Both the position numbers and the translations under genes were made by a program. DNA of 64,000 nucleotides, taken from an uncultured Nannocystaceae bacterium (GTDB lineage Bacteria; Myxococcota_A; Bradymonadia; UBA7976; UBA1532). The notes below the pieces were generated by a model. The model was not told the DNA's origin. It ran no database searches and worked only from the letters and a program-made list of their open reading frames with translations. Location: the NCBI GenBank assembly GCA_964402225.1, contig CAYOBQ010000008.1, positions 4,293-68,292 on the forward strand, read 5' to 3'. Below are positions 9,661 to 12,356 of this stretch, one piece after another (the first letter of the stretch is position 1; every line of letters begins with the position of its first letter).

Positions 9661-10623
9661 TCACGACGGGGCGAAGCCTCGACGCCCGATGCCGAGGAGC
9701 AGCAGCGCCCACCAGCCGAGGCGCGCGCCGGGGGTCGCCCTACAGTCGGGGAGCCAGCCATCATCGCCGGGCGCCCGCCACTCCAAGGCCGGCGCGTCCG
9801 GGAGCGGCAAGCAGCGCACGTCGCGCAGCACCACGACGCCCCAGGCGTCGATGACCTCGACGGCGCCGCAGACCTGCGCGGCCCCCCAGCGATCGAAGGC
9901 GCCCACGTCGGGCTCGATCGGGGCGTCCGTCACGTCCGCGTAGAGCCCCCGGTCGAGGACCGCCAGGGCCTCCGCCTCATCGACGCCGGCGCCGGTCCGC
10001 GCGAGCAGCCAGTCGTCCCCCCGCGTGATGTCCAGCTCGTAGCGCAAGCGAAAGCGCGCCTCGGCCCCGATCTGCTCCCGCTGGCAGGGCTCGCAGGTGT
10101 CCTCCTCGAGCACGGGCCCGCAGTCCCCGAGCCGCGCGCGCTCCCAGGGCTCGACGGCGAGGTCGTCGAGGGTCACCTCCAGATGACGCTCGGGTGGCCC
10201 TCCCTCGGCCGGGCGCGTGGTGAAGCTCCATCGGGTGCCGACGAGTCCAGAGAAGTCGTCGACTTCGACCTCGACCTCGTAGGTCGTGTCCGGGCGCAGG
10301 GGCTCGTCGGGGGTCCAGGCCACGCTGCCGAACCGGGGTCCGGGGCCCAGTCGCCCCGCGATCCCCTCCCGCGGATCCCCGGCGGGGTCGTCTGCGTCGT
10401 AGACCTCCAACCGGATCCTGTTGGGGAGCAGTCGAGAGCCACGCGCGTCGTGGGCGAACACGACCACCGGCAGCTCGAGCGGAGCGCGGCGCTCACCGTC
10501 GGCCGGCGTCACGTGGACGAACGTGGTCTCCGGTGGCGCGATCGAGCACGCCTCGGCGGCCCGCGGCGCCACGGCCCACACAAAGGCTCCGGCCCACAGC
10601 GTCTTCATCGTCATGGGTGTCAT
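9661..10623 (-). CDS. Secreted acidic hypothetical protein with MYXO-CTERM-like tail
   Basis: Start MTPMTMKTLWAGAFVWAVAPRAAEA (signal) at 10623, inside ORF 9661..10863. C-terminus ...DCRATPGARLGWWALLLLGIGRRGFAPS. Its ATG overlaps the upstream stop as ATGA. Confidence 0.55.
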   Translation of the reverse strand: MTPMTMKTLWAGAFVWAVAPRAAEACSIAPPETTFVHVTPADGERRAPLELPVVVFAHDARGSRLLPNRIRLEVYDADDPAGDPREGIAGRLGPGPRFGSVAWTPDEPLRPDTTYEVEVEVDDFSGLVGTRWSFTTRPAEGGPPERHLEVTLDDLAVEPWERARLGDCGPVLEEDTCEPCQREQIGAEARFRLRYELDITRGDDWLLARTGAGVDEAEALAVLDRGLYADVTDAPIEPDVGAFDRWGAAQVCGAVEVIDAWGVVVLRDVRCLPLPDAPALEWRAPGDDGWLPDCRATPGARLGWWALLLLGIGRRGFAPS

Positions 10624-12356
10624 CACAGCGTCTCCAAGTAGGTCACGAGGTCCCCGAGGGCGTCGGCGGAGAGTTGAGAGGTGCGCCCGTGCAGATCGCC
10701 ACCGCCGCAGTCGGCGTCGAAGCGCTCGGCCAGGGTCTGCGCGCACCCGTCGTGCATGAACGGCGCGCGCCATCGCAGGCCCCGCAGCGCCGGCGTCTGA
10801 AGGTCCCCTCCGGTGCCGACATCGTGGTTCTCGTTGTCGGACCCGACGCCGCCTACGTGGCACCGCTCGCAGCCCGCCTCGGCGAAGACCACCGCGCCCC
10901 GCGCGACGGCCGCGGCGTCGACCTCGACCGGCCCGGGGGGCAACGGTTGGGCGTCGATCCAGTCGAGCATGAGCGCCGCATAGGCCTCGGGGAGCCGGGG
11001 TCCGCCCATTCGATCCGCCATCACCTCGTGGGCCAGGGCGCGGAAGTCCGCCATGTCGCCGTCCCAGTGGAACGGCTCGCTCCCCTTCAGCCCGCCGAGG
11101 AGGCTCTGCGTGCGACGCAGGCCGAGATCCTCGAAGAGCCAGGTGTGTCCGTCCTCGAGCCCCTCGGGGTGACAGGACGCACAGGCGATGCCGGTGCCCG
11201 CGTCGCGGTGGAAGAGGTCGTGTCCAGCGTCGTAGGCCGAGCGCGGCGAGAGCTCGAGCTCACGCCGACCCTCGCTGAGCCGCGCCGGCTCGCGGGACTG
11301 GTAATAGAGGCGACCGCTCCGGTCATGGGCCACCGCCGTCACCTCGCCGTCGCCGCCGGATCCGCGGCCCGTGTAGCAGGGCCCGACGAGCTCGAGACCA
11401 GGCCCCAGACGCTCACGGAGCAGGCCGCCTGTGGCCGCGCCAGGCGTCGCCACCGCGAGCCCTGCCTCGGGGCTCACGGACACATCGACGGCCACCACGC
11501 CACGCATCAGCTCCCCAGCCTGGAGCACCTCTCCGGTCGGCTGAAACATCGTCATCGACGCGGCGACGAGGGCCCCGCCGCAAGGGCCGCTCCGATCGCC
11601 GTAGCCGCTGGGCGTCTGGACCTCGACGCGACCCAGGCTCGCGCGCTGGTGCAGCATCAAGACGCTCCCATCCGGCCGCCCGATGGTACGCCACGCGACG
11701 GCGGGCGCCCGCGGCGCGCCCCCTTGCACGAGGTGGTCATCCCTCGCCGGCCCTCGCCGGGCGACCACCGCCCCGGAGGCGTCGACCGTGAGGAGCTCGG
11801 CGGCGCGGAAGCGGGTCACGTAGAGCTGACCGCCAGCGACGACCACGTCCCGGAGATCGGTGTCGAGGTAGACGCGCCGCTCCACCGCTCCGTCGAGGGC
11901 CAGCGTCACCAGCTCCCCCCCCGCGCACGCGACGTGGAGCCGCGCTCCCTCGAAGGCCAGCCCGCGCGGCGCCGGACACACCTCGTGGCGCACGCTCACG
12001 CCGTCGGACAGGGCGACGCGCAGCACCCCGCCGCGCCGCAGCGCGACGAAGGCGTGGGCCTCGTCCAGCACCACCCGCCCCGGCTCCGCGCCGGGGACCT
12101 CCACCGTGTGGCGCAGCGCCCACGTGTCGAGATCGACCACATAGACCAGGTCACGATCCGGATCGGCGGCCACCGCGACGCCGCCCAGAACGGCCAGCGT
12201 GCCCCCGGAGATGGGCGGCGGAGAGACCTCGGCCTGCGCCAGCGGCGGGAGGGTGCGCGCCGTCTCGGGGGACTCGAGATCCTCTGGATCGGTCCCTCCA
12301 TCGCAGGCGGCGAACGCGAGGGCGAGCAGGGCGATTCGATTGGCGTGGGCGAGCAT
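10623..12356 (-). CDS. Di-haem cytochrome c peroxidase (CCP/MauG) family lipoprotein with N-terminal beta-propeller-like region
   Basis: 577 aa. Lipobox LLALAFAAC. Two CXXCH motifs (CASCH, CERCH). HTWLFEDLGLRRTQSLLGGLKGSEPFHWDGD matches the CCP family FxWDGR region. The antisense ORF 10533..12890 + was rejected. Confidence 0.75.
   Translation of the reverse strand: MLAHANRIALLALAFAACDGGTDPEDLESPETARTLPPLAQAEVSPPPISGGTLAVLGGVAVAADPDRDLVYVVDLDTWALRHTVEVPGAEPGRVVLDEAHAFVALRRGGVLRVALSDGVSVRHEVCPAPRGLAFEGARLHVACAGGELVTLALDGAVERRVYLDTDLRDVVVAGGQLYVTRFRAAELLTVDASGAVVARRGPARDDHLVQGGAPRAPAVAWRTIGRPDGSVLMLHQRASLGRVEVQTPSGYGDRSGPCGGALVAASMTMFQPTGEVLQAGELMRGVVAVDVSVSPEAGLAVATPGAATGGLLRERLGPGLELVGPCYTGRGSGGDGEVTAVAHDRSGRLYYQSREPARLSEGRRELELSPRSAYDAGHDLFHRDAGTGIACASCHPEGLEDGHTWLFEDLGLRRTQSLLGGLKGSEPFHWDGDMADFRALAHEVMADRMGGPRLPEAYAALMLDWIDAQPLPPGPVEVDAAAVARGAVVFAEAGCERCHVGGVGSDNENHDVGTGGDLQTPALRGLRWRAPFMHDGCAQTLAERFDADCGGGDLHGRTSQLSADALGDLVTYLETL

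What the first reader, a model, noticed from the sequence alone, without database searches (positions are those of the whole stretch)
9661..12356. Cytochrome-c-peroxidase-like di-haem lipoprotein translationally coupled (ATGA) to an acidic MYXO-CTERM protein
The CCP/MauG-like gene (two CXXCH, FHWDGD region, N-terminal propeller-like region) overlaps the start of a secreted acidic protein ending in a Cys...GWWALLLLGIGRRG sorting tail. The tight coupling suggests a functional pair, for example a surface-tethered substrate or partner of a periplasmic haem enzyme. I am not aware of a described pairing of this kind.
Basis: partly seen in the sequence, partly recalled or inferred. Interest (0 to 1): 0.55.

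Follow-up and report, generated by a model that had tools for sequence, protein, structure and literature searches.

The report
Di-haem lipoprotein paired with surface protein
A membrane-tethered enzyme that carries two haem groups, built like two subunits of the anammox enzyme hydrazine synthase, sits beside a fast-evolving protein tagged for the myxobacterial cell surface; one uncultured lineage keeps the two genes adjacent or fused, so they very probably work together, but their function is unknown.

Summary
Both genes are real and lie at the stated coordinates on the minus strand.

Gene A (10623-12356) encodes a lipoprotein with an N-terminal beta-propeller and a C-terminal di-haem module. 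Its closest solved relative is hydrazine synthase gamma, not a canonical peroxidase or MauG. The propeller's top fold match is hydrazine synthase beta, though barely ahead of other propellers. A is therefore a fused beta-gamma-like protein. Its family is very large in Myxococcota.

Gene B (9661-10623) encodes an acidic secreted protein. It has an Ig/CopC-like domain, a new cysteine-rich domain and a MYXO-CTERM-type tail that scores 2 bits below the model cutoff.

The junction is TGATG, a 1-nt overlap, not ATGA.

The pairing is not general. Of 80 genome loci, 78 lack B, and three distant B relatives lack A. In a simple tree, however, all B-linked A genes fall in one clade. Of 17 members with known context, 16 have B: six adjacent, in either order, and ten fused in frame.

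The fusions keep an internal MYXO-CTERM tail followed directly by a lipoprotein signal peptide. This implies cleavage into two lipid-anchored proteins.

The pair is a genuine, undescribed functional unit. Whether B is a substrate or a subunit of A is unresolved.

The parts
10623..12356 (-). Gene A: 577-aa lipoprotein with a beta-propeller and a di-haem module (hydrazine-synthase beta-gamma-like, CCP/MauG superfamily)
   Evidence: ORF and translation. Identical protein P0001 was called on 11 public contigs. AF2 model pLDDT 92.3. Best solved homologue is HZS gamma.
12303..12356 (-). A signal peptide and lipobox (MLAHANRIALLALAFAAC; Cys18 is the predicted lipidated residue)
   Evidence: Sequence. 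Cys18 is nearly invariant in 116 homologues. A PS51257-like pattern is met by 85 of 107 unfused family members.
11247..12197 (-). A beta-propeller domain (aa ~54-370), YVTN/YncE type
   Evidence: All-beta secondary structure in the AF2 model. Foldseek top hit is 5c2v_B, HZS beta (E 2.8e-12, TMt 0.62), among many propellers with similar scores. Profile hits: 1l0q at 1.5e-17, YncE at 3.5e-8, HZS beta at 5.8e-5.
10626..11234 (-). A di-haem cytochrome c module (aa ~375-577)
   Evidence: The family profile aligns to HZS gamma residues 59-314 at E 1.3e-25 and covers both haem motifs. Weak Pfam matches to CCP_MauG, Cytochrom_C and Cytochrome_CBB3.
11169..11183 (-). First haem-binding motif, CASCH (aa 392-396)
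   Evidence: Sequence. Invariant in 116 homologues. Aligns with CASCH of HZS gamma, haem gamma-I.
11055..11072 (-). FHWDGD motif (aa 429-434); W431 is the inter-haem Trp
   Evidence: H430, W431 and G433 are invariant. W431 aligns with gamma-His144 of HZS. Non-anammox beta-gamma homologues, CCP and MauG all have Trp at this position (PMC12758564).
11001..11015 (-). DRMGG (aa 448-452); invariant Met450 sits at the position of HZS gamma-Cys165, the third covalent haem link
   Evidence: Alignment 'RmgG' against 'RVCG'. M450 is invariant. The residue numbering offset was derived from PMC12758564.
10857..10871 (-). Second haem-binding motif, CERCH (aa 496-500)
   Evidence: Sequence. Invariant in the family.
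10621..10626 (-). A/B junction GTGATG: A's stop is TGA at 10625-10623 and B's ATG is at 10623-10621 (1-nt overlap)
   Evidence: Sequence read directly. Gene callers placed A's end and B's start on the same base.
9661..10623 (-). Gene B: 320-aa acidic secreted protein of a family with no Pfam or NCBIfam model
   Evidence: ORF. GC3 is 0.91. A profile search found 803 relatives at E <= 1e-3 and 154 at E <= 1e-10 among 1.84 billion representatives. AF2 model pLDDT 84.5.
10549..10623 (-). B signal peptide ending in AEA, a signal peptidase I type AxA site; the mature protein starts with the conserved Cys26
   Evidence: Sequence. An A-x-A-C context is shared by the family, and only 6 of 35 members fit a lipobox pattern. 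Cys26 is at least 90% conserved.
10216..10527 (-). B N-terminal Ig-like (Big_5 / CopC-like) beta-sandwich (aa 33-136)
   Evidence: AF2 strands. Foldseek hits: LdtMt2 BIg domains at E 3.5e-5, and PcoC/CopC at TMt 0.75-0.77. Pfam Big_5 at 18.6 bits, below cutoff. Large Ig-repeat proteins match only this part of the profile.
9805..10176 (-). B cysteine-rich alpha/beta domain (aa 150-273) with conserved C168, C177-x2-C180, W246, C252 and C271
   Evidence: AF2 model. Conserved columns. No relative among solved structures by sequence or by fold.
9664..9747 (-). B MYXO-CTERM-type tail (aa 293-320): Cys294, hydrophobic helix LGWWALLLLGIG, then RRG
   Evidence: TIGR03901 at 17.8 bits against a cutoff of 20, E 0.0033. 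Nine of 11 family members match. AF2 predicts a helix at aa 303-316. The tripartite definition is in PMC11980579.
7989..9653 (+). Convergent neighbour: TraB-like outer-membrane protein with an OmpA domain and Asp-rich repeats (likely start 8181). It may be associated with the pair and is not shown to be part of it.
   Evidence: NF033763 TraB aligns over nearly its full length at 234.5 bits, against a cutoff of 700. Pfam OmpA matches at 2.6e-20. Homologues at 43% identity lie convergent to the last B gene in L006 and L014.

Best explanation
A and B form a dedicated two-protein envelope module.

What each protein is:
- A is exported by Sec and lipid-anchored at Cys18. It is a periplasmic redox enzyme in which a beta-propeller packs against a two-haem c-type module. 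This is the same build as hydrazine synthase beta plus gamma, but with the peroxidase/MauG-type inter-haem tryptophan.
- B is exported by Sec and cut after AxA. It stays held in the inner membrane by the helix of its MYXO-CTERM tail until the tail is processed.

The mechanism I commit to follows the MauG/preMADH and MbnH/MbnP pattern. While B is still tethered at the periplasmic face, A binds it. A then uses its di-haem centre to modify it oxidatively, for example at a conserved Trp or Cys. [quoted passage not shown]

Tight translational coupling, or in relatives fusion into one precursor with an internal MYXO-CTERM and lipoprotein-signal hairpin, ensures both proteins enter the membrane at the same place and time.

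Status of each step:
- Shown: the gene structures, the domain folds (predicted), the homologies, and the clade-wide adjacency and fusion.
- Inferred: haem loading, lipidation, myxosortase cleavage, physical contact, and any modification of B.

I put about 0.65 on the broader claim that A and B work together directly, and about 0.35 on the specific enzyme-client mechanism.
For: Linkage:
- All B-linked A genes form one clade, and 16 of the 17 members with readable context carry B.
- Adjacency is kept through changes of gene order: A->B in the window, L005, L006, L014 and L100, and B->A in L094.
- Ten divergent in-frame B-A fusions lie in different genomic contexts. P0005 alone is on 18 contigs.
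- Pairwise A and B identities co-vary over 15 pairs (r = 0.87), which indicates inheritance as a unit.

Processing:
- Every fusion keeps the order Cys, hydrophobic helix, RRR, hydrophobic helix, lipobox Cys.
- So both sorting signals remain under selection, and the products are meant to separate.

Enzyme-client reading:
- A belongs to the CCP/MauG/HZS-gamma superfamily and has an invariant W431.
- MauG and MbnH, two characterised branches of that superfamily, act on co-encoded secreted proteins (PMC11951088).
- One A is followed by three B paralogues in L014.
- B evolves much faster than A (mean identity 31% against 51%). It keeps only a framework of Cys, Trp and Gly residues.
- B carries a cell-surface sorting tag, whereas A has an ordinary lipoprotein signal.
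Against: - Most of the A family has no B: 78 of 80 genome loci, with no other conserved neighbour either.
- Only seven clade-specific residue changes were found, none at the haem motifs, so A's chemistry is probably not specific to B.
- A's closest solved relative, HZS gamma, acts on a small molecule.
- Fusion and 1:1 coupling fit subunits of a complex better than an enzyme with a client.
- More distant B relatives sit without A.
- No conserved His, Met or WxW-type cofactor motif was seen in B.
- No interaction model could be computed, and nothing here shows haem binding or any modification.
Confidence: 0.35

Rival explanations
1. A and B form a stable hetero-complex, with B as a non-haem subunit. 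The analogies are the third, adjacently encoded subunit of hydrazine-synthase-like enzymes and the TraA/TraB pair. B might also escort the complex to the cell surface through the type II secretion system. The enzyme itself would act on a small molecule such as H2O2 or an N-oxide.
For: - Translational coupling and ten in-frame fusions give 1:1 stoichiometry.
- Non-anammox beta-gamma homologues are typically encoded next to a partner subunit, in either gene order (PMC12758564).
- MYXO-CTERM proteins have precedents of overlapping ORFs (traA/traB) and of fusion with a partner through an internal MYXO-CTERM (MXAN_5598) (PMC11980579).
- A's active-site residues are unchanged between B-linked and B-less clades.
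Against: - B is poorly conserved (about 31% identity) and keeps only framework residues, which argues against a large conserved interface.
- B has no detectable similarity to HZS alpha or to any haem or metal site.
- One locus has three B genes per A.
- The different sorting signals predict different final locations, unless A is also surface-exposed.
Confidence: 0.3
2. There is co-expression only. A is a generic periplasmic di-haem peroxidase-type enzyme and B is an unrelated surface adhesin or receptor. The two are inherited together because they share an operon or regulation, and the fusions are neutral losses of a stop codon that both sorting signals tolerate.
For: - A usually occurs alone, and B relatives occur alone.
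- The fusions arose once: they form a single subclade.
- B looks like a typical fast-evolving surface protein, with an Ig-like domain shared with giant adhesin-like proteins.
Against: - Adjacency has survived at least two changes of gene order and divergence to about 46-54% (A) and 23-31% (B) identity with the window's proteins.
- The flanking genes differ between loci.
- Sixteen of 17 clade members keep the link.
Confidence: 0.2
3. A is a true hydrazine-synthase-like nitrogen-oxide enzyme that reduces NO to hydroxylamine, working with B in place of the alpha subunit.
For: HZS gamma is the best solved homologue over both haem motifs, and HZS beta is the top fold hit for the propeller. The domain order matches the fused beta-gamma subunit, which PMC12758564 reports for 'Ca. 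Scalindua japonica'. NCBIfam also has a model for this fusion (NF052342).
Against: - The catalytic signature of HZS gamma is absent. His144 is replaced by Trp and Cys165 by Met. Asp168 lies in an insertion that A lacks.
- NCBIfam HZS models score 39 and 30 bits against cutoffs of 625 and 1250.
- B has no haem motif and no similarity to HZS alpha.
Confidence: 0.05

Closest known systems
[quoted passage not shown]
   Same: - A beta-propeller lies N-terminal to a two-haem c-type module.
- The gamma subunit is A's best solved homologue (E 1.3e-25). It shares the motifs CASCH, HDVGTG and HGRTS.L....L.DLV.YL.
- The beta subunit is the top fold hit for the propeller.
- Like the non-anammox homologues, A has Trp at the gamma-His144 position.
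   Different: - A lacks gamma-Cys165 (it has Met450) and gamma-Asp168.
- No alpha-like gene lies nearby.
- A is a lipoprotein.
- The partner gene is a haem-free MYXO-CTERM protein.
- Myxococcota are not mentioned in that paper.
MauG/preMADH and MbnH/MbnP (a di-haem enzyme that modifies a co-encoded secreted protein)
   Same: - Same haem-enzyme superfamily: profile hits to MbnH 6E1C at 9e-11 and to MauG at 3e-4.
- A has the inter-haem Trp.
- The enzyme gene lies next to a gene for a secreted, cofactor-less beta-rich protein (PMC11951088).
   Different: - A carries an extra propeller and is closer to HZS gamma.
- The NCBIfam MauG and MbnH models score 22 and 19 bits, against cutoffs of 444 and 363.
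- B is unrelated to MbnP or MADH by the searches run here, and it has no WxW, His or Met copper site.
- No modification has been shown.
Bacterial di-haem cytochrome c peroxidases (Pfam PF03150)
   Same: Two CXXCH motifs, an LF..D....C.SCH lead-in, the FHWDG and MHDG motifs, and a periplasmic location.
   Different: - The Pfam score is below the gathering threshold.
- The two haem motifs are about 104 residues apart.
- A has an N-terminal propeller and a C-terminal HGRTS tail of the HZS-gamma type.
- The axial ligand of the second haem has not been established.
TraA/TraB and MXAN_5598 of Myxococcus xanthus (a MYXO-CTERM surface protein coupled or fused to its partner)
   Same: - A MYXO-CTERM protein whose ORF overlaps, or is fused to, its neighbour.
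- An internal MYXO-CTERM in a fusion has been proposed to be processed normally (PMC11980579).
- A TraB-like gene lies next to B in the window, L006 and L014.
   Different: - Here the coupled or fused partner is a di-haem lipoprotein, not an OmpA barrel.
- B has no PA14 domain or myxo_disulf repeats.
- The TraB-like gene is convergent and scores far below the TraB cutoff (234 against 700).
CopC/PcoC and bacterial Ig-like (Big_5, LdtMt2 BIg) domains
   Same: The fold of B's N-terminal domain: TMt 0.75-0.77 to PcoC/CopC, E 3.5e-5 to LdtMt2 domains A and B, and a profile E of 3e-4.
   Different: There is no conserved His or Met copper ligand. The mature N-terminus is Cys, not His. Sequence similarity is marginal.

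Membership tests
Bacterial di-haem CCP/MauG superfamily (Pfam PF03150) | Two c-type haem-binding motifs (CXXCH) in one periplasmic polypeptide | tested here: met
   CASCH at aa 392-396 and CERCH at aa 496-500. Both are invariant in 116 homologues.
Bacterial di-haem CCP/MauG superfamily (Pfam PF03150) | Score at or above the Pfam gathering threshold | tested here: not met
   23.2 bits against 25.6 for the window protein. Many homologues do carry a precomputed PF03150 hit.
Bacterial di-haem CCP/MauG superfamily (Pfam PF03150) | Conserved tryptophan between the two haems | tested here: met
   W431 in FHWDG is invariant. It sits at the position that PMC12758564 equates with the CCP/MauG Trp.
Bacterial di-haem CCP/MauG superfamily (Pfam PF03150) | Covalent haem loading and peroxide-dependent activity | not testable with these tools
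   This needs expression, haem staining, spectroscopy and activity assays.
Hydrazine synthase gamma subunit (NCBIfam NF052341) | Homology across the di-haem module | tested here: met
   The family profile matches 5c2v_C at E 1.3e-25 over chain residues 59-314. The single sequence gives E 1.9e-8 over the last 60 residues.
Hydrazine synthase gamma subunit (NCBIfam NF052341) | Equivalog score cutoff | tested here: not met
   39.3 bits against a cutoff of 625. The beta-gamma fusion model scores 30 against 1250.
Hydrazine synthase gamma subunit (NCBIfam NF052341) | Catalytic signature: His144, Cys165 (third covalent haem bond) and Asp168 | tested here: not met
   The aligned residues are W431 and M450. 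Asp168 falls in an insertion that A lacks. Residue roles are taken from PMC12758564 and PMC12607021.
Hydrazine synthase gamma subunit (NCBIfam NF052341) | Adjacent gene for an alpha subunit | tested here: not met
   The neighbours are YjbQ, B, a TraB-like OmpA protein and an RHS protein, with no haem alpha-like gene. The B profile does not hit 5c2v_A even at E <= 10.
Hydrazine-synthase beta-gamma-like fused architecture (as in PMC12758564) | Beta-propeller N-terminal to the di-haem module in one chain | tested here: met
   AF2 model. Foldseek top hit is 5c2v_B at E 2.8e-12, only marginally ahead of other propellers. Profile hit to HZS beta at E 5.8e-5.
Bacterial lipoprotein (protein A) | Signal peptide ending in a lipobox with an invariant Cys | tested here: met
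   LALAFAAC fits a PS51257-like pattern, as do 85 of 107 unfused homologues. Cys18 is at least 90% conserved. Acylation itself was not tested.
MYXO-CTERM sorting domain (TIGR03901) (protein B) | C-terminal tripartite signal: a motif with an invariant Cys, a hydrophobic helix and an Arg-rich end, on a protein with an N-terminal signal peptide | tested here: met
   C294, then LGWWALLLLGIG, then RRG at the C-terminus, with an N-terminal signal peptide. C294, R314 and R315 are invariant or nearly invariant in the family alignments. The definition is from PMC11980579. The residues before Cys are PD rather than the usual GG.
MYXO-CTERM sorting domain (TIGR03901) (protein B) | HMM score at or above the curated cutoff | tested here: not met
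   17.8 bits against 20 (E 0.0033) for the window protein. Nine of 11 family members match at E <= 0.1, the best at 3.4e-5.
MYXO-CTERM sorting domain (TIGR03901) (protein B) | Host is a member of Myxococcota encoding myxosortase MrtX and a type II secretion system | tested here: inconclusive
   No mrtX or T2SS gene was recognised among the window proteins scanned. Relatives come from MAGs labelled Bradymonadia or Myxococcales. A neighbouring gene matches MtsC and myxo_disulf_rpt.
MauG/MbnH-type enzyme plus protein-substrate pair | Di-haem enzyme gene adjacent to the gene of its secreted protein substrate | tested here: met
   Adjacency or fusion holds in 16 of 17 clade members with known context. 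This shows the arrangement only.
MauG/MbnH-type enzyme plus protein-substrate pair | Enzyme-dependent covalent modification of a conserved residue of the partner | not testable with these tools
   W246 and six Cys residues are conserved in B, but nothing shows that they are modified.
TraB outer-membrane exchange protein (NF033763) (neighbour at 7989-9653) | Score at or above the curated cutoff | tested here: not met
   234.5 bits against 700, although the alignment covers model positions 19-498 of 522. It is a TraB-like paralogue, not TraB.
CopC/PcoC copper-binding protein (B N-domain) | Copper ligands (N-terminal His brace, His/Asp, Met-rich loop) | tested here: not met
   Fold similarity only, at TMt 0.75-0.77. 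The mature protein has 3 His and 0 Met, none conserved. The mature N-terminus is Cys.

The most novel reading that the evidence does not exclude
A is a new kind of protein-modifying di-haem enzyme, MauG-like in its chemistry but built on a hydrazine-synthase beta-gamma scaffold. It would install a cross-link or a protein-derived cofactor in a MYXO-CTERM client while that client is still tethered at the inner membrane. The client would then be displayed on the myxobacterial cell surface as a chemically modified, possibly redox-active protein. The natural fusions would then be single precursors that are cut by both myxosortase and lipoprotein signal peptidase.
Probability: 0.15. Interest if true: 0.8.

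Novelty: new variant of a known kind. Interest (0 to 1): 0.5.

Why it matters
- It places a very large, unstudied family of Myxococcota haem proteins next to hydrazine synthase beta-gamma. There are at least 568 loci in species-representative genomes and more than 2,300 database proteins. A 2025 survey of hydrazine-synthase homologues does not mention this phylum.
- It defines a new family of MYXO-CTERM proteins with an uncharacterised cysteine-rich domain.
- It gives a clean comparative-genomic case that the two work together: adjacent in either order, or fused, in one clade.
- The fusions carry a C-terminal sorting tag and an N-terminal lipoprotein signal back to back in one polypeptide. They are ready-made substrates for testing how myxosortase and signal peptidase II act on internal signals.
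- If A modifies B, the MauG/MbnH principle would extend to cell-surface proteins.

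Tried and rejected
- Word-indexed homology search with B alone, and then with an 11-sequence B alignment, returned nothing. It did not even return B itself or the fusions. The prefilter was probably saturated by low-complexity words. The exhaustive profile search recovered the family.
- A metagenome scan with a B alignment failed twice. One alignment had no usable conserved stretch. The other gave a pattern too generic to confirm any hit.
- No sigma-70-like promoter or intrinsic terminator was found in 9300-13300.
- Clustering of genes within 3.5 kb of A across 86 loci found no conserved neighbour for the wider A family, only local Sorangium/Polyangium synteny.
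- A search for residues specific to the B-linked A clade gave only seven positions, none at the haem motifs.
- B as a lipoprotein was considered and rejected. It has E at position -2 and a Pro/charged c-region, and only 6 of 35 family members fit a lipobox pattern.
- B as a cupredoxin or CopC-type metal protein was rejected because it has no conserved His or Met.
- B as a TraA homologue was rejected because no model matches it.
- Both structure-prediction jobs went on the single proteins, so no A-B complex model was made. The tool would not have reported interface confidence in any case.

Full report
**1. What is in the sequence**

Two co-directional genes lie on the minus strand of this 71% GC window.
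- Gene A is 10623..12356 and encodes 577 aa.
- Gene B is 9661..10623 and encodes 320 aa.

Third-position GC is 0.88 for A and 0.91 for B, as in neighbouring real genes. Independent gene callers made the same two calls on four public metagenome contigs that carry identical DNA.

A's stop codon is TGA at 10625-10623, and B's called ATG is at 10623-10621. Two other starts are possible: a GTG at 10626, giving a GTGA overlap, and an ATG at 10608, 14 nt after the stop. The ATG at 10608 would give the 'MKT...' N-terminus seen in relatives. The coupling is tight under any of these starts. No promoter-like or terminator-like site lies between or around the genes.

**2. Protein A**

A begins with MLAHANRIALLALAFAAC. 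This fits a PS51257-type lipobox, as do 85 of 107 unfused homologues. Cys18 is at least 90% conserved.

The AlphaFold2 model is confident (pLDDT 92.3, pTM 0.91). It shows a beta-propeller at aa ~54-370 followed by a helical domain at aa ~375-577. The helical domain holds CASCH (392-396), FHWDGD (429-434) and CERCH (496-500).

Curated models recognise A only weakly.
- Pfam CCP_MauG scores 23.2 bits against a gathering score of 25.6, and Cytochrom_C scores 22.8 against 21.3.
- NCBIfam gives only sub-threshold C-terminal hits. The best is hydrazine synthase gamma at 39 bits against a cutoff of 625.

Against solved structures, ranked by profile E-value:
- The single sequence hits hydrazine synthase gamma (5C2V chain C) at E 1.9e-8.
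- A profile of 116 homologues hits it at E 1.3e-25, aligned across both haem motifs.
- An archaeal S-layer YVTN propeller follows at 1.5e-17.
- MbnH follows at 9e-11, canonical peroxidases at about 1e-8, HZS beta at 5.8e-5 and MauG at about 3e-4.

A Foldseek search with the model puts HZS beta (5C2V chain B) first. Its lead over other propellers is small.

A is therefore a single-chain equivalent of hydrazine synthase beta plus gamma. A December 2025 paper reports this fused architecture in 'Ca. Scalindua japonica' (NCBIfam also has a model for the fusion, NF052342). It also reports it in homologues from several non-anammox phyla, but not in Myxococcota (PMC12758564).

As in those homologues, the hydrazine-synthase catalytic signature is missing from A.
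- Gamma-His144 aligns with the invariant W431, which is the peroxidase/MauG-type inter-haem Trp.
- Gamma-Cys165 aligns with the invariant Met450.
- Gamma-Asp168 lies in an insertion that A lacks.

A is thus a member of the CCP/MauG/HZS-gamma superfamily and is not a hydrazine synthase. Its family is large.
- There are more than 2,369 database proteins, and this count came from a capped candidate list.
- There are at least 568 loci in one-per-species genomes.
- The best 80 loci come from Sorangium, Polyangium, Minicystis, Sandaracinus, Bradymonadia and uncultured Myxococcota-like MAGs.

**3. Protein B**

B has a signal peptide with a Pro/charged c-region ending in A-E-A. This fits signal peptidase I rather than a lipobox, and only 6 of 35 family members fit a lipobox pattern. 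The mature protein starts with the conserved Cys26. It is acidic, with pI 4.3.

The AlphaFold2 model (pLDDT 84.5, pTM 0.75) has three parts.
- An Ig-like sandwich at aa 33-136.
- An alpha/beta domain at aa 150-273.
- A C-terminal helix at aa 303-316.

The N-terminal domain resembles the bacterial Ig-like domains of LdtMt2. It also resembles PcoC/CopC (TMt 0.75-0.77), but it lacks the copper ligands. The second domain has no relative among solved structures by sequence or fold. It carries the conserved C168, C177-x2-C180, W246, C252 and C271.

The tail is DCRATPGARLGWWALLLLGIGRRGFAPS. It has the tripartite MYXO-CTERM architecture described in PMC11980579. It scores 17.8 bits against the TIGR03901 cutoff of 20. 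Nine of 11 relatives match the model, the best at E 3.4e-5.

No Pfam or NCBIfam model covers the rest of the protein. An exhaustive profile search finds 803 relatives (154 at E <= 1e-10) among 1.84 billion representatives. They fall into two groups.
- About a hundred are stand-alone proteins of 300-380 aa with the same layout.
- The rest are giant Ig-repeat proteins that match only the N-terminal domain.

**4. Is the pairing more than chance?**

The nine closest long homologues of A (905-964 aa) are B-A fusions, and P0121 is a tenth. Each has this order:
- a signal peptide;
- a B-like region (E down to 4e-19 against the window's B);
- a MYXO-CTERM-like Cys, helix and RRR;
- directly after that, a hydrophobic stretch and a canonical lipobox Cys;
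- the A region.

The fused ORFs are continuous in the DNA and sit in unrelated genomic contexts. One of them is on 18 contigs.

Unfused pairs occur in both gene orders.
- A->B in L005, with an 8-nt gap.
- A->B in L006, with a 36-nt gap.
- A->B in L100, with an 11-nt gap that holds a Shine-Dalgarno sequence.
- A followed by three tandem B paralogues in L014, a Bradymonadia MAG.
- B->A in L094.

In an NJ tree of 207 A sequences, all of these fall in one clade of 19 distinct members. The tree is simple and has no support values. The clade holds ten fusions and six adjacent pairs. It also holds one copy without B, which is a second paralogue in a genome that also has a fusion, and two members of unknown context. 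None of the 81 locus-derived A sequences outside the clade has a B within about 6 kb.

Within the clade, A identities average 51% and B identities 31%. The two sets of pairwise identities co-vary (r = 0.87), as expected for joint inheritance with B evolving faster.

The link has limits.
- The wider A family has no conserved neighbour at all.
- Three more distant B relatives have no A on their contigs. L095 holds only about 0.5 kb downstream of B.

The association is therefore real, old and maintained through rearrangement, but it is specific to one clade.

**5. What the fusions say**

The order N-terminal signal, B, Cys-helix-RRR, helix-lipobox-Cys, A is topologically consistent. B lies in the periplasm. 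The MYXO-CTERM helix runs inward and the Arg cluster is cytoplasmic. The second helix runs outward, so A is also periplasmic. The Arg cluster serves both as the basic end of MYXO-CTERM and as the n-region of the lipoprotein signal.

All ten divergent fusions keep both signals. This argues that both cleavages still occur and that the end products are two separate lipid-anchored proteins. This step is an inference. An internal MYXO-CTERM in a gene fusion has one published precedent, MXAN_5598. It was likened to TraA plus TraB, whose ORFs overlap (PMC11980579).

**6. How it most likely works**

*Shown.* Two envelope proteins are co-inherited, translationally coupled or fused. One is a propeller plus di-haem enzyme of the CCP/MauG/HZS-gamma superfamily. 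The other is a fast-evolving, disulfide-framework protein with a cell-surface sorting tag.

*Inferred.* They act directly on or with each other; I put about 0.65 on this. I favour, weakly at 0.35, an enzyme-client relation of the MauG/preMADH or MbnH/MbnP kind (PMC11951088). In this model A acts on B at the periplasmic face before myxosortase cleavage and type II export.

Points for the enzyme-client model:
- A keeps the inter-haem Trp.
- One locus has one A and three B genes.
- B is poorly conserved apart from its Cys/Trp framework.
- The two proteins have different predicted destinations.

Points against it:
- A's haem region is unchanged in the many B-less clades.
- A's nearest solved relative handles a small molecule.
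- 1:1 coupling fits subunits of a complex.

The main rival, at 0.3, is a stable hetero-complex. It would resemble hydrazine-synthase-like enzymes with their adjacently encoded third subunit, or TraA/TraB, and might be exported together. Mere co-expression gets 0.2, and true hydrazine-synthase-type nitrogen chemistry gets 0.05.

**7. Comparison with what is known, and novelty**

A is a new member of a known kind: a beta-gamma-like hydrazine-synthase homologue in the CCP superfamily. B is a new MYXO-CTERM protein family. The pairing, and especially the fusion through back-to-back sorting signals, is a new variant of two known themes. One theme is a di-haem enzyme with a co-encoded protein partner. 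The other is a MYXO-CTERM protein coupled to a partner.

No paper in the searchable library holds both 'MYXO-CTERM' and 'heme'. The function remains unknown and the carriers are uncultured, so I score interest at 0.5.

Noticed in passing
window 7989-9653 (+); L006 7888-9924 (-); L014 11038-13074 (-): A TraB-like outer-membrane/OmpA protein with Asp-rich thrombospondin-type repeats lies convergent to the last B gene. Its stop is 7 nt from B's stop in the window. Homologues at 43% identity hold the same position in two other lineages whose other flanking genes differ. The fusion loci and L094 lack it.
   Followed up: partly
window 2259-6521 (-): A 1420-aa Asp-rich repeat protein matches the cell-cohesion MYXO-CTERM protein MtsC (179 bits, below the 350 cutoff) and the myxobacterial cysteine-rich repeat. 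It ends in DCSTTGAAGLWWWLLVVVRRRLR. This is a second MYXO-CTERM-like tail in the window, although the tail model itself did not come up at E <= 0.001.
   Followed up: partly
L014 7771-11015 (Bradymonadia MAG JBMOFP010000026.1): Three tandem B paralogues follow one A. The second and third have near-identical signal peptides and tails. The first has lost the N-terminal Cys (AMP instead of ACS) and the CxxC motif.
   Followed up: partly
protein P0148 (652 aa, from the representative search): This is a B-B tandem in one ORF. The first copy's MYXO-CTERM-like tail runs straight into a second signal peptide ('...YRRSAMKQTAS...') and a second B copy. It is another example of an internal sorting tag followed by a signal peptide.
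   Followed up: no
L095 1181-4492 (-) and 5001-5975 (+): A distant B relative (P0130) has no A neighbour. It is divergently adjacent to an 1103-aa protein with faint multihaem cytochrome hits (Cytochrom_c3_2, Cytochrome_C554).
   Followed up: no
L018, L046, L087 (Polyangiaceae, delta-proteobacterial MAG, Sorangium cellulosum So ce26): Tandem duplicates of the A gene occur, and several Sorangium genomes carry two or more dispersed copies. The family is expanding in Polyangia.
   Followed up: no
window 13294-19938 (+): A 2214-aa RHS/YD-repeat protein (DUF6531, RHS_repeat and TEN_YD-shell in the public annotation) has many N-terminal CDG.DNDCDG cysteine-rich repeats. It is probably a polymorphic toxin and is divergent from the YjbQ-A-B block.
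   Followed up: no
window 12459-12866 (-); L005 359-766: A YjbQ/UPF0047 gene lies about 100 nt upstream of A on the same strand. The closest relative's contig also has it upstream, but a HipA toxin gene and a GmrSD-like gene are inserted between it and A.
   Followed up: no
A protein aa 241-263 (window ~11568-11636): A long loop in the propeller carries the highly conserved motif PGGYG..G.C.G (Y252 invariant, C259 nearly so). It may correspond to the tunnel-lining loop of hydrazine synthase beta (residues 245-260). This was not verified structurally.
   Followed up: no
tool behaviour: The word-indexed protein search returned no hit for B even though the identical protein is called on public contigs, and the fusions that contain B-like regions are in the same collection.
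   Followed up: yes
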